64,000 bases of DNA from Escherichia phage pEC-M719-6WT.2, in sequence record OQ845958.1; one strand, given 5' to 3'. The notes under the pieces were generated by a model. The model searched no databases. It was not told the DNA's origin and saw nothing but the letters and a program-made list of their open reading frames with translations. Position numbers and translations under genes: made by a program. Numbering within the stretch: the first letter of the stretch is position 1; each line of letters opens with the position of its first letter. Below are positions 32,299 through 33,458 of this stretch, piece after piece.

Positions 32299-32541
32299 AT
32301 GGAAACATTAATTGCAGGTACTGTTGTTCTTGGTGCTGGTTCTTTCTTCCTGGCTGCACTGGCATATTTTCTGCCGTGGATTATCGCGCTACTGCGAGGA
32401 ACCAAAAGTAATTGCGGAATCTTCTTTGTTAACCTCCTGTTAGGTTGGACAATGGTCGGATGGTTTATTGCATTTATTTGGGCACTCGTTGCTGAGCGTA
32501 AATCAAATGCACATGTAATTATCATCAAGGAAACCAAATGA
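32299..32541 (+). CDS. two-helix membrane protein, putative superinfection immunity (Imm-like)
   Basis: 80 aa; two transmembrane helices; lies directly beside gene 43 where T4 imm sits. Confidence 0.45.
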   Translation: METLIAGTVVLGAGSFFLAALAYFLPWIIALLRGTKSNCGIFFVNLLLGWTMVGWFIAFIWALVAERKSNAHVIIIKETK

Positions 32542-32681
32542 AGATAATTACAATTATTGTACTGATTGCATTTTTTAGTATGTCAATCTATTGGGCAATA
32601 ATGACTCCGCATATGATTCCAACTTTAATTTTGGGTTGGATATTTTTGGGACTCCAAGCTCGCTATGAATGTTTTAATTGA
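32538..32681 (+). CDS. small membrane protein (47 aa)
   Basis: hand-translated; ATGA overlap with upstream gene. Confidence 0.3.
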   Translation: MKIITIIVLIAFFSMSIYWAIMTPHMIPTLILGWIFLGLQARYECFN

Positions 32682-32691
32682 GGAAAATACA

Positions 32692-33195
32692 ATGAAAAAG
32701 TTAGCTATCGCAGCTGTTATGCTGCTATCCGGTTGTGCTTACCAGGGTGATGTAGTTAATGCCAGTGAGATTGGTAAAGCAAGAATTGCTGCAGACCGTC
32801 AGGTGCATAATGGTTCCTTTGATTTCAAAGGTGGTACTGGACTTATCTACAAACGCGACAACAATCAATGTGGAAATAACTGCGCAAAATATGCTCAACA
32901 AGAAATTGAGTACAAACGCGAGCAAGCTGCAAAGCATGACGAAATCATTGCCAAGCTGGAAGCAGAAACTAAGCGACAAAATGACCTGGACACTGTTAAC
33001 CAGATTTCACAGGTATGCATGTCATATATCAATATGCAGATAAACATCATGCGTGCAGAAGCTTATCAGGCAGCGGAGACGGGTTCTCCAAAAGCCAATG
33101 AGTATCGCGATATGTATCAGCGTTCTGCTCAAAACCGTCTGAGCTATATTAATAAATGTATAGCTAAAGAGAAAGCACGCCAAGGTATTAACTGA
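32692..33195 (+). CDS. lipoprotein with coiled-coil region
   Basis: 167 aa from ATG 32692 (SD GAGGA); signal peptide with lipobox LLSGC. Confidence 0.5.
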   Translation: MKKLAIAAVMLLSGCAYQGDVVNASEIGKARIAADRQVHNGSFDFKGGTGLIYKRDNNQCGNNCAKYAQQEIEYKREQAAKHDEIIAKLEAETKRQNDLDTVNQISQVCMSYINMQINIMRAEAYQAAETGSPKANEYRDMYQRSAQNRLSYINKCIAKEKARQGIN

Positions 33196-33302
33196 TGCTA
33201 TTATTACTTCTGATTGTTGGAACAGTAATTGGTTTGCTGCTATTAGAAAAGCGTAATAAGCATTTGGCTGAAGAAAACTGGAAACGTGGAAACGTTTACT
33301 AA
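33195..33302 (+). CDS. small membrane peptide (35 aa)
   Basis: hand-translated; single TM helix. Confidence 0.25.
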   Translation: MLLLLLIVGTVIGLLLLEKRNKHLAEENWKRGNVY

Positions 33303-33329
33303 ATTACTCTGAACTGCGAGAAAAATATT

Positions 33330-33458
33330 ATGATTGATATGCTATTGATTAGTCTGTGGCTGTTGTCTGCATTTGGTATTGGTTTTATGTACTGGTGGGA
33401 CAAACGTCAGACCCGGAAGATTGTTGAACGTGCAATTAATCGTGGATTTAATCGTTAA
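33330..33458 (+). CDS. small membrane peptide (42 aa)
   Basis: hand-translated; single TM helix. Confidence 0.25.
   Translation: MIDMLLISLWLLSAFGIGFMYWWDKRQTRKIVERAINRGFNR

What the first reader, a model, noticed from the sequence alone, without database searches (positions are those of the whole stretch)
32299..33458. Membrane/lipoprotein cluster at the imm locus: candidate superinfection-exclusion module
Between gene 43 and uvsX the window encodes an 80 aa two-helix membrane protein at the T4 imm position, a 167 aa lipoprotein (lipobox LLSGC) with a coiled-coil domain, and three TM peptides of 35-47 aa. This replaces the T4 imm-42-beta-gt block with an entirely envelope-directed set, suggesting an expanded or alternative exclusion or DNA-injection-blocking system.
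Basis: partly seen in the sequence, partly recalled or inferred. Interest (0 to 1): 0.4.

Follow-up and report, generated by a model that had tools for sequence, protein, structure and literature searches.

The report
Ordinary T-even imm locus, stripped down
The five small membrane-directed genes are real, but three of them also occur at or beside phage T4's own superinfection-immunity (imm) locus, and here they look like a stand-alone module only because this phage genus lacks the DNA-modification genes that normally lie next to them.

Summary
Five co-oriented, tightly packed ORFs lie at 32299-33458, between DNA polymerase (gene 43) and uvsX, in a Gaprivervirus (VR7/SP18/RZ-like T-even phage, 95-97% nt identity to published genomes that annotate the same genes).

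- **80 aa ORF:** a bona fide Imm (Pfam Imm_superinfect 64 bits; 50.6% identical to T4 Imm over its full length).
- **47 aa ORF:** belongs to the T4 Y02C peptide family. T4 has it between imm and gene 42, with the same ATGA overlap onto imm.
- **167 aa lipoprotein:** shares PHROG 1754 with T4 Imm.1, the lipoprotein beside T4 imm.
- **42 aa ORF:** has an unannotated Dhakavirus counterpart just upstream of uvsX.
- **35 aa ORF:** found only in some Gapriverviruses.

So the cluster does not replace the T4 block. It is T4's imm neighbourhood with 42, beta-gt and segA missing, and Gapriverviruses are reported to lack gene 42 altogether.

I found no similarity to Llp or Cor. Only Imm has a known function.

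One modest lead emerged. The lipoprotein stays next to imm in five genera and three gene arrangements, including next to spackle in Mosigvirus, and it diverges together with imm in phage VR25. It could therefore be an unrecognised exclusion partner.

Overall interest is low to moderate.

The parts
32230..32258 (+). Sigma-70-like promoter match (TTTACA-17-TATGAT) in the 43-imm spacer. It overlaps the first of two hairpins (about 32236-32253 and 32263-32279).
   Evidence: The consensus scan gives 10 of 12 matches, but the region has fewer promoter-like sites than shuffled controls, so this is weak evidence. The RNA fold is -15.8 kcal/mol, z = -3.0 against shuffles. No function has been shown.
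32299..32541 (+). imm: an 80 aa, two-segment inner-membrane protein, homologue of T4 Imm (immunity to superinfection).
   Evidence: Pfam PF14373 Imm_superinfect E = 9.5e-18, 64.3 bits against a cutoff of 27.9. phrog_1039 E = 7e-30. 50.6% identity to T4 Imm over 83 aligned positions. Hydropathy. Annotated as imm in relatives.
32538..32681 (+). 47 aa hydrophobic hairpin peptide of the T4 Y02C family (called '42.1' in the VR7 record). It overlaps imm by ATGA.
   Evidence: phrog_3610 E = 1.2e-26, full length. Homologues occur in 573 phage records. The ORF between imm and 42, unannotated in the T4 reference record, is MKSKIIAALLLILMIIISIYYSVTVPLMIPTIILGWSLLLLQVKYECIN and hits phrog_3610 at 1.2e-25. 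Homologues in metagenome loci carry the precomputed label PF26865 Phage_T4_Y02C.
32692..33195 (+). 167 aa predicted outer-membrane lipoprotein (lipobox LLSG|C, Ala at +2). It belongs to PHROG 1754, which also holds T4 Imm.1. Function unknown.
   Evidence: phrog_1754 E = 3.3e-47; T4 Imm.1 hits the same PHROG at 6.1e-43. Homologues occur in 125 phage records. Only 17 clusters at 50% identity were found among 1.84 billion proteins. Invariant residues are G48, G50, Y53, G61, C109 and C156. The AlphaFold2 model has mean pLDDT 80: beta-hairpin 41-55, helix 61-130, return helices 135-163. pN/pS = 0.09.
33195..33302 (+). 35 aa ORF with one N-terminal hydrophobic segment and a charged tail. It is specific to some Gapriverviruses and its coding status is the least certain.
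   Evidence: Found in only 11 Gaprivervirus records. Present or absent as a precise cassette: present in RZ, MN01, TH44, 212, TH40 and VR25; absent in VR7, DK-13 and EAWsc9. No family match. Pooled counts are 10 synonymous against 5 non-synonymous changes.
33330..33458 (+). 42 aa ORF with an N-terminal transmembrane segment and a basic C-terminal tail (RKIVERAINRG). It is a conserved micro-gene immediately upstream of uvsX.
   Evidence: Found in 16 Gaprivervirus records at 93-98% identity. Dhakaviruses JS98 and IME281 have an unannotated syntenic ORF, MLGPLLLFIGLVLFSFGALLLLVWLEKREVRKIVDKAINRGIK, right upstream of uvsX (E = 3e-7 in the small database). It is gained and lost independently of the 35 aa ORF.
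33460..33484 (+). TGCTCTA-N12-TATAAT, a putative MotA-type middle promoter for uvsX. It marks the 3' end of the envelope gene run.
   Evidence: Read directly from the sequence. Conserved, apart from one substitution in the spacer (DK-13), in all 9 Gaprivervirus relatives aligned. The Dhakavirus equivalent is TGCTGTA-N12-TATAAT. Assignment to the MotA-box class rests on my own knowledge of the T4 middle-promoter consensus and was not tested.
37365..37658 (+). sp (spackle, gene 61.3 homologue), the second known T-even exclusion gene. It lies outside the finding but belongs to the same biology.
   Evidence: 70% identity to the Mosigvirus protein annotated 'spackle periplasmic' (E = 1.4e-45). The 97 aa ORF is intact and has a signal peptide.

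Best explanation
This is the Gaprivervirus version of the conserved T-even imm locus: a run of small, co-oriented, partly overlapping early-region genes whose products all go to the cell envelope.

**Shown by homology**
- The 80 aa protein is Imm. In T4, Imm is an inner-membrane protein that stops superinfecting T-even phages from delivering their DNA. By my own knowledge of Lu & Henning 1989, it is sufficient for this when expressed from a plasmid.
- The phage also keeps spackle 4 kb away, so it has the classical two-part exclusion equipment.
- The 47 aa peptide is the T4 Y02C family.
- The 167 aa lipoprotein belongs with T4 Imm.1 in PHROG 1754.
- Neither the peptide nor the lipoprotein has a known function.

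**Inferred**
- It is disulfide-stapled (C109-C156 are invariant).
- It projects a charged spacer helix and a helical head into the periplasm.
- Because it keeps travelling with imm across genera, its most likely job is an accessory one in remodelling the infected cell's envelope against incoming phage. That could be exclusion or resistance to lysis from without.
- I put that specific role at roughly 30%.

**Why it looks like a stand-alone module**
- In other genera, DNA-modification genes sit between this locus and uvsX: 42 and beta-gt in T4, arabinose-5-P isomerase and nucleotidyltransferase genes elsewhere.
- Those genes are absent here, so the envelope genes are all that is left between gene 43 and uvsX.
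- The 42 aa gene is a conserved micro-membrane protein upstream of uvsX.
- The 35 aa ORF is a recent, dispensable addition.
For: **Identity of the phage and existing annotation**
-.

**Imm**
-.

**Y02C in T4, with the same ATGA overlap onto imm**
-. Pfam label.

**Lipoprotein and T4 Imm.1**
- Both sit in PHROG 1754 with full-length profile matches.
- They share the mature N-terminal motif GC..QG.VVN.S.VGK.

**Lipoprotein next to or near imm, in different arrangements**
- T4: 43 - imm.1 - imm.
- Mosigvirus: imm.1-like - imm - spackle in the dmd region, while only isomerase and Y02C remain next to gene 43.
- Dhakavirus and Gaprivervirus: imm - Y02C - lipoprotein.
- Serratia phage WSPA: 43 - lipoprotein - imm.
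- Metagenome loci L018 and L019.

**Block divergence in VR25**
- The divergent stretch matches imm-Y02C-lipoprotein exactly, at 57-83% nt identity.
- The flanks are mostly 92-100%.

**Selection and other context**
- Purifying selection on all five ORFs.
- Spackle is present in the window.
- Gene 42 and beta-gt are absent from the whole 64 kb window.
- Gene 42 is reported absent from the genus (PMC8056088 and PMC12115623).
Against: **No functional data**
- I found nothing on Imm.1, DUF5481 or Y02C.

**The tie to T4 Imm.1 is incomplete**
- The window protein does not hit Pfam DUF5481, whereas T4 Imm.1 hits it at 5e-72.
- hhalign aligns only the first 31 columns, which are the signal peptide plus the N-terminal motif.

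**The lipoprotein also occurs without imm nearby**
- In Kanagawavirus, Winklervirus and locus L017 it sits directly after gene 43 with no imm within the stretches examined (4-5.4 kb).
- Y02C there overlaps (ATGA) the isomerase gene instead.
- Linkage may therefore be positional rather than functional.

**Other points**
- By my recollection of Lu & Henning 1989, plasmid-borne T4 imm alone excludes T4, so a partner is not strictly needed.
- Fold searches gave only generic helical hits.
Confidence: 0.8

Rival explanations
1. Positional hitch-hiking. Apart from imm, the small envelope genes are unrelated, individually dispensable early 'accessory' genes. They collect in the plastic segment between gene 43 and uvsX, and their closeness to imm carries no functional meaning. 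Each does something of its own, or nothing measurable in the laboratory.
For: - The lipoprotein occurs directly after gene 43 without imm in Kanagawavirus, Winklervirus and L017.
- Y02C stays beside the isomerase and gene 43 in Mosigvirus while imm has moved away. It overlaps (ATGA) whichever gene lies upstream of it.
- The 35 aa and 42 aa ORFs come and go independently among near-identical phages.
Against: - The lipoprotein and imm moved together to a different neighbourhood, beside spackle, in Mosigvirus.
- The adjacency recurs in five genera with three gene orders.
- VR25 swapped or diverged exactly the imm-Y02C-lipoprotein block.
Confidence: 0.4
2. Receptor blocker. The lipoprotein works like T5 Llp or phi80/N15 Cor: an outer-membrane lipoprotein that binds the phage's own outer-membrane receptor from the periplasmic side and blocks adsorption or triggering.
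For: - It is a lipoprotein with a predicted outer-membrane address, encoded in the early region by position (by analogy with T4; timing not measured) next to an exclusion gene.
- There is a weak PHROG signal to Cor (phrog_1119, E = 0.024).
Against: - The Cor signal covers residues 1-17 only, which is the signal peptide.
- There is no Llp or Cor match by fold in BFVD or PDB.
- The mature protein has 152 residues and is mostly helical. By my own knowledge Llp is a small beta-rich protein.
- T4-type Imm.1 is at least 95% identical in 502 Tequatrovirus records. By my own knowledge that genus uses several different receptors, so the sequence does not appear to track receptor choice.
- The gene is not linked to receptor-binding protein genes.
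Confidence: 0.07
3. Lysis function. The lipoprotein and the small transmembrane peptides act in lysis or lysis timing, as a spanin-like, antiholin-like or lysis-inhibition accessory, rather than in exclusion.
For: The set is a periplasmic helical lipoprotein plus small single-pass membrane peptides, which superficially recalls o-spanin/i-spanin and holin/antiholin sets.
Against: - The genes sit in the replication-gene region next to imm, not in a lysis cassette.
- The lipoprotein has no C-terminal transmembrane segment, so it is not a unimolecular spanin.
- It is not embedded in or overlapped by an i-spanin-like gene.
- No PHROG spanin or holin hit at E <= 1.
Confidence: 0.05
4. The 35 aa ORF (33195-33302) is not a gene. 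It is a short hydrophobic reading frame in an indel-prone spacer.
For: - It has no family match and occurs in only 11 records of one genus.
- It is absent from VR7, DK-13 and EAWsc9 with no visible consequence.
- The substitution counts are very small.
Against: - Its ATG overlaps the lipoprotein stop codon (TGATG).
- The indel boundaries coincide with the ORF.
- The frame is intact in all carriers, including the divergent VR25.
- Synonymous changes outnumber non-synonymous ones per site (pN/pS 0.15).
- Three independent genome annotations call it a CDS.
Confidence: 0.15

Closest known systems
Phage T4 imm locus (43 - imm.1 - imm - Y02C - 42 - beta-gt - segA - uvsX)
   Same: - It has the same flanking genes, 43 and uvsX.
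- Imm is the same protein, 50.6% identical.
- The Y02C peptide is the same, with the same ATGA overlap onto imm.
- A lipoprotein of the same PHROG 1754 sits beside imm.
   Different: - The lipoprotein lies downstream of imm and Y02C here, not upstream.
- It is longer (167 against 125 aa). It has an extra beta-hairpin/NQCGNNC motif and a long spacer helix, and it does not reach Pfam DUF5481.
- 42, beta-gt and segA are absent.
- Two extra micro-ORFs are present.
Dhakavirus (JS98) and published Gaprivervirus loci (VR7, SP18, RZ, MN01)
   Same: - The order imm - Y02C - lipoprotein is the same.
- RZ, MN01 and 212 have all five ORFs annotated at 95-97% nt identity.
   Different: - JS98 keeps about 4 kb of RB69-like arabinosyl-hmC pathway genes between the lipoprotein and uvsX.
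- JS98's lipoprotein is only about 50% identical.
- VR7, DK-13, VR25 and EAWsc9 lack one or both micro-ORFs.
Mosigvirus imm.1-like - imm - spackle cluster
   Same: A lipoprotein of the Imm.1 type sits immediately upstream of imm.
   Different: - It lies in the dmd/61.x region next to spackle rather than next to gene 43.
- Y02C stays behind beside gene 43 and the arabinose-5-P isomerase gene.
T5 Llp and phi80/N15 Cor (receptor-blocking exclusion lipoproteins)
   Same: These are phage-encoded lipoproteins predicted to sit in the outer membrane and facing the periplasm.
   Different: - There is no sequence or fold similarity beyond the signal peptide.
- This protein is much larger and helical.
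- It is not linked to a receptor-binding protein gene.
T4 Spackle (gp61.3)
   Same: It is a small, secreted, early exclusion factor of T-even phages, present in this window at 37365-37658. PMC7677548 describes it as acting with Imm.
   Different: It is a soluble periplasmic inhibitor of the gp5 lysozyme, unrelated in sequence to any of the five ORFs.

Membership tests
Imm_superinfect (Pfam PF14373) / T4 Imm | Profile match above the curated threshold | tested here: met
   64.3 bits against a gathering score of 27.9, E = 9.5e-18, residues 23-63. phrog_1039 E = 7e-30.
Imm_superinfect (Pfam PF14373) / T4 Imm | Full-length similarity to the experimentally characterised T4 Imm, including two hydrophobic segments around the LPW..AL.RG...NLL.GW..GW core | tested here: met
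   50.6% identity over 83 aligned positions, E = 1e-23. Hydropathy. Sequences are printed side by side.
Imm_superinfect (Pfam PF14373) / T4 Imm | Blocks DNA delivery by superinfecting T-even phage | not testable with these tools
   This needs plasmid expression or deletion plus exclusion and DNA-injection assays.
Phage_T4_Y02C (PF26865) / phrog_3610 | Profile match and homology to the T4 ORF between imm and 42 | tested here: met
   phrog_3610 E = 1.2e-26 over 47 of 47 positions. The T4 ORF hits it at 1.2e-25. tblastn to T4 gives 57% identity over 30 residues. The PF26865 label is seen only on homologues in L018 and L019. The local Pfam copy returned nothing for either the window peptide or the T4 peptide.
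T4 Imm.1 family (PHROG 1754; Pfam DUF5481 PF17578) | Membership of the same remote-homology cluster as T4 Imm.1 | tested here: met
   The window protein hits phrog_1754 at 3.3e-47 (residues 1-161 onto profile 2-147 of 148). T4 Imm.1 hits it at 6.1e-43 (1-124 onto 2-146 of 148).
T4 Imm.1 family (PHROG 1754; Pfam DUF5481 PF17578) | Match to the Pfam DUF5481 model | tested here: not met
   No DUF5481 hit at E <= 1 for the window protein or for P0008, P0016 and P0022. T4 Imm.1 scores 5.2e-72.
T4 Imm.1 family (PHROG 1754; Pfam DUF5481 PF17578) | Profile-profile alignment across the mature domain | tested here: inconclusive
   hhalign gives 95.8% probability but over only 31 columns, covering the signal peptide plus the motif QG.VVN.S.VG. 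The C-terminal cysteine pair aligns in MAFFT.
T4 Imm.1 family (PHROG 1754; Pfam DUF5481 PF17578) | Lipobox with a non-Asp +2 residue, and a position next to imm or gene 43 | tested here: met
   The lipobox is LLSG|C followed by A. Synteny is shown.
Llp (T5) / Cor (phi80, N15) exclusion lipoproteins | Sequence or fold similarity of the mature protein | tested here: not met
   Cor phrog_1119 scores E = 0.024 on residues 1-17 only. There are no Llp or Cor hits in Pfam, BFVD or PDB searches. I did not run a direct pairwise alignment with Llp.
Llp (T5) / Cor (phi80, N15) exclusion lipoproteins | Binds and inactivates the phage's own outer-membrane receptor | not testable with these tools
   Indirect evidence points against it. 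T4-type Imm.1 is at least 95% identical across 502 Tequatrovirus records, a genus that by my own knowledge uses several different receptors.
Spanins (o-spanin or unimolecular spanin) | A lipoprotein in a lysis cassette, paired with or embedded in an i-spanin gene, or carrying a C-terminal transmembrane segment | tested here: not met
   There is no hydrophobic segment outside the signal peptide. The neighbours are imm, Y02C and uvsX. There is no spanin PHROG hit.

The most novel reading that the evidence does not exclude
The Imm.1-family lipoprotein (PHROG 1754) is an unrecognised third component of T-even superinfection exclusion.

In this reading it is an outer-membrane-anchored, disulfide-stapled helical protein. 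Its periplasm-projecting head cooperates with Imm at the inner membrane, and possibly with Spackle in the periplasm. Together they would disable the injection site or protect the envelope from incoming tails.

Its repeated co-migration with imm (T4, Mosigvirus beside spackle, Dhakavirus/Gaprivervirus, Muldoonvirus) and its co-divergence with imm in VR25 would then reflect co-adapted partners.
Probability: 0.25. Interest if true: 0.55.

Novelty: already known. Interest (0 to 1): 0.27.

Why it matters
As it stands the finding matters little. The locus is annotated in about 30 near-identical published genomes, and its one characterised gene is a textbook T4 gene.

Two things are worth keeping.

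- **How Imm works is still poorly understood.** The comparative pattern found here names a specific, cheap-to-test candidate partner. A lipoprotein stays with imm through at least three rearrangements and sits next to spackle in Mosigvirus. T4 itself encodes this candidate as imm.1.
- **The missing DNA-modification genes.** The locus looks like an 'envelope-only module' because the DNA-modification genes are absent. That connects to an open puzzle noted in the literature: Gapriverviruses keep Alc, DenB and dCTPase but have no known hydroxymethylase.

Tried and rejected
- **Structure-based function for the lipoprotein.**
  - The first AlphaFold2 model, from 8 close sequences, was poor (pLDDT 64), so the Foldseek-PDB search on it was uninformative.
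  - The second model, from 20 sequences, reached pLDDT 80.
  - With it, BFVD returned only family members (JS10, CIP9).
  - The afdb50 library was unavailable.
- **Defence and naming libraries.** PADLOC and NCBIfam returned nothing useful.
- **Homologue searches.**
  - The word-indexed homologue search found only 7 close relatives.
  - The exhaustive search found 17 clusters and none showed a different architecture. The contexts I checked were all T4-like phage.
- **Literature.** Searches for imm.1 and DUF5481 found nothing, and one search was swamped by unrelated 'imm' words. Lu & Henning 1989 (PMC250924) is not held.
- **RNA elements.** The Rfam scan of the region gave only a chance-level hit.
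- **Does imm exist elsewhere in Kanagawavirus and Winklervirus genomes?**
  - Local tblastn covers only the fetched stretches of about 5 kb.
  - Collection-wide Imm searches list only the top organism categories.
  - This question stays unresolved.
- **Rejected after testing.** Llp/Cor kinship, a spanin role, and the idea that 42 and beta-gt had merely moved elsewhere within the window.
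Full report
**What the window is**

The 2 kb around the finding matches 32 published T-even genomes over at least 80% of its length. Identity is 94-97% for all but VR25 (84%). All that carry a genus-level classification belong to Gaprivervirus (VR7, VR20, VR26, SP18, RZ, MN01 and others). Several of those records annotate the same genes: 'immunity to superinfection' followed by two to four hypothetical proteins, one of them labelled 'lipoprotein' in phage EAWsc9.

**Checking the observation**

All five ORFs are on the + strand at the stated coordinates, between gene 43 (29512-32226) and uvsX (33538-34716).

- imm (32299-32541) and the 47 aa ORF (32538-32681) overlap by ATGA.
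- The lipoprotein gene is best started at 32692. That start has a GAGGA ribosome-binding site and gives MKKLAIAAVMLLSG|CA.
- The 35 aa ORF starts on the lipoprotein's stop codon (TGATG).
- The 42 aa ORF follows after 27 nt.

Hydropathy supports two membrane segments in the 80 aa protein. It also supports an N-terminal hydrophobic segment in each of the three peptides.

Against nine Gaprivervirus relatives, pooled pN/pS is:

| ORF | pN/pS |
|---|---|
| imm | 0.21 |
| 47 aa | 0.29 |
| lipoprotein | 0.09 |
| 35 aa | 0.15 |
| 42 aa | 0.17 |

For comparison, the flanking parts of gene 43 and uvsX give 0.02-0.03. The comparisons are not independent, and counts for the two shortest ORFs are small.

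**What each gene is**

*The 80 aa protein is Imm.*
- Pfam Imm_superinfect: 64.3 bits against a cutoff of 27.9.
- phrog_1039: E = 7e-30.
- 50.6% identity to T4 Imm end to end.

*The 47 aa peptide belongs to the T4 Y02C family.*
- It hits phrog_3610 at E = 1.2e-26.
- It has homologues in 573 phage records, often unannotated.
- T4 itself has this ORF in the gap between imm and gene 42, left unannotated in the T4 reference record. It starts on the imm stop codon exactly as here and scores 1.2e-25 against the same PHROG.
- Homologues in metagenomic contigs carry the Pfam label PF26865 Phage_T4_Y02C.

*The 167 aa lipoprotein belongs with T4 Imm.1.*
- It hits phrog_1754 at E = 3.3e-47.
- T4 Imm.1, the 125 aa product of the gene between 43 and imm, is also a lipoprotein (LAG|C). 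It hits the same PHROG at 6.1e-43.
- The two share a motif just after the lipidated cysteine (GC..QG.VVN.S.VGK) and a C-terminal cysteine pair.
- The tie is not complete. The window protein does not reach Pfam DUF5481, which T4 Imm.1 hits at 5e-72.
- hhalign aligns only the first 31 columns.
- I therefore call it a probable divergent relative, not a proven orthologue.

*The lipoprotein family is small.*
- An exhaustive search found only 17 clusters at 50% identity among 1.84 billion proteins.
- Every genomic context I checked for it was a T4-like phage.
- Residues G48, G50, Y53, G61, C109 and C156 are invariant, and QCG.NC is nearly so.

*The 42 aa ORF is a real micro-gene.* Dhakaviruses JS98 and IME281 have an unannotated ORF directly upstream of uvsX with the same architecture and the same tail (RKIV.KAINRG).

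*The 35 aa ORF is confined to 11 Gaprivervirus records*.

The 35 aa and 42 aa ORFs are present or absent independently, as ORF-sized cassettes:

| Phages | 35 aa ORF | 42 aa ORF |
|---|---|---|
| window, RZ, MN01, TH44, 212, TH40 | present | present |
| VR7, DK-13 | absent | present |
| VR25 | present | absent |
| EAWsc9 | absent | absent |

T4's order is 43 - imm.1 - imm - Y02C - 42 - beta-gt - segA - uvsX. The window's order is 43 - imm - Y02C - lipoprotein - 35 aa - 42 aa - uvsX.

- Three of the five 'new' envelope genes are therefore already at or beside T4's imm locus.
- What is missing is 42, beta-gt and segA. tblastn finds neither gp42 nor beta-gt anywhere in the 64 kb window.
- Two papers report that Gapriverviruses lack the hydroxymethylase altogether while keeping Alc, DenB, DenA and dCTPase (PMC8056088, PMC12115623).
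- In other genera, DNA-modification genes fill the space between this locus and uvsX.
- The cluster is a remnant, not an expansion.

**Structure and kinship of the lipoprotein**

With a 20-sequence alignment, AlphaFold2 gives mean pLDDT 80. The predicted layout is:
- a disordered tether;
- a short helix (26-38);
- a beta-hairpin (41-55) carrying the invariant G.G..Y;
- a 70-residue helix (61-130) whose first half is very rich in E, K, R and Q;
- return helices (135-163), which place invariant C156 in a position to pair with C109.

**Is there anything to the exclusion-module idea beyond Imm?**

Gene neighbourhood gives a modest yes for the lipoprotein and a no for Y02C.

*The lipoprotein stays adjacent or nearly adjacent to imm in several settings:*
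- T4.
- Dhakavirus and Gaprivervirus.
- A metagenomic lineage, L018 and L019.
- Serratia phage WSPA, with the order 43 - lipoprotein - imm - isomerase.
- Mosigvirus, the most telling case. There the lipoprotein-imm pair sits in a different part of the genome, between a 61.4-like gene and spackle.

*Y02C behaves differently.* In Mosigvirus only the isomerase and Y02C remain beside gene 43. Y02C simply overlaps (ATGA) whichever gene lies upstream of it.

*VR25 shows block divergence.*
- The stretch that has diverged to 57-83% nt identity coincides with imm-Y02C-lipoprotein.
- Most of the gene 43 end, the 35 aa ORF and uvsX stay at 92-100%.
- VR25's Imm is 88% identical to JS98 Imm.

*Evidence against linkage:*
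- Kanagawavirus, Winklervirus and contig L017 have the lipoprotein right after gene 43 with no imm in the stretches examined, 4-5.4 kb.
- By my recollection of Lu & Henning 1989, plasmid-borne T4 imm suffices for exclusion.

*Evidence against a receptor-specific blocker:* T4-type Imm.1 is at least 95% identical in 502 Tequatrovirus records, a genus that by my own knowledge uses several different receptors.

*The classical second exclusion gene is present.* The window has its own intact spackle gene at 37365-37658, next to dmd.

**Regulatory context**

- The 43-imm spacer holds a sigma-70-like match and two hairpins.
- After the 42 aa ORF there is TGCTCTA-N12-TATAAT. It is conserved, apart from one spacer substitution in DK-13, in all nine relatives and is mirrored in Dhakavirus.
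- It fits my recollection of the T4 MotA-dependent middle-promoter layout and probably serves uvsX.
- No Rfam family matches.

**Verdict**

The locus is already annotated in close relatives, and its core is present in T4.

What remains of interest is a testable hypothesis: the Imm.1-family lipoprotein may be a functional companion of Imm. I found no literature on it.

Noticed in passing
whole window (1-64000); expected site 32542-33537: No homologue of T4 gp42 (dCMP hydroxymethylase) or beta-glucosyltransferase is detectable anywhere in the 64 kb window. Two papers report that Gapriverviruses lack gene 42 genome-wide yet keep Alc, DenB, DenA and dCTPase. That implies an unknown DNA modification or some other solution.
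   Followed up: partly
L004 (T4 NC_000866) locus about 4728-4877, minus strand; record about 26227-26376: The T4 reference record leaves a conserved 49 aa ORF (Y02C family, phrog_3610 E = 1e-25) unannotated between imm and 42. Its start overlaps the imm stop codon. Many T-even records likewise show 'none' at this position.
   Followed up: yes
L004 (T4) locus 5137-5514: RefSeq names T4 imm.1 'iduronate sulfatase'. The protein is a 125 aa lipoprotein (Pfam DUF5481), so the name looks spurious. Other records call it 'immunity protein', apparently from the gene name alone.
   Followed up: partly
L013 (VR25) about 560-1480; window 32260-33160: In VR25 the imm-Y02C-lipoprotein block is only 57-83% identical to the window, while the flanks are mostly 92-100%. 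Its Imm is 88% identical to Dhakavirus JS98 Imm. This is a mosaic replacement or accelerated divergence of exactly these three genes. VR7 shows a smaller divergent patch inside imm (32380-32499, 77-83%).
   Followed up: partly
L015 (IME281) about 1485-1616; L016 (JS98) about 1440-1571: Dhakaviruses have an unannotated 43 aa membrane ORF immediately upstream of uvsX. It is homologous to the window's 42 aa ORF.
   Followed up: yes
L020 (Mosigvirus phi25-307) 570-1605: In Mosigvirus the Imm.1-like lipoprotein, imm and spackle form a contiguous trio in the dmd/61.x region. The slot next to gene 43 holds arabinose-5-P isomerase and Y02C instead (L021).
   Followed up: yes
window 32236-32279: Two stable hairpins lie right after the gene 43 stop codon (-15.8 kcal/mol, z = -3.0). 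They are not followed by a T-run, so they do not look like an intrinsic terminator. Their function is unknown.
   Followed up: partly
window 36546-36863: A 105 aa ORF lies just upstream of dmd (MKTIDCKAEYKVYYHGSS...). I did not examine it.
   Followed up: no
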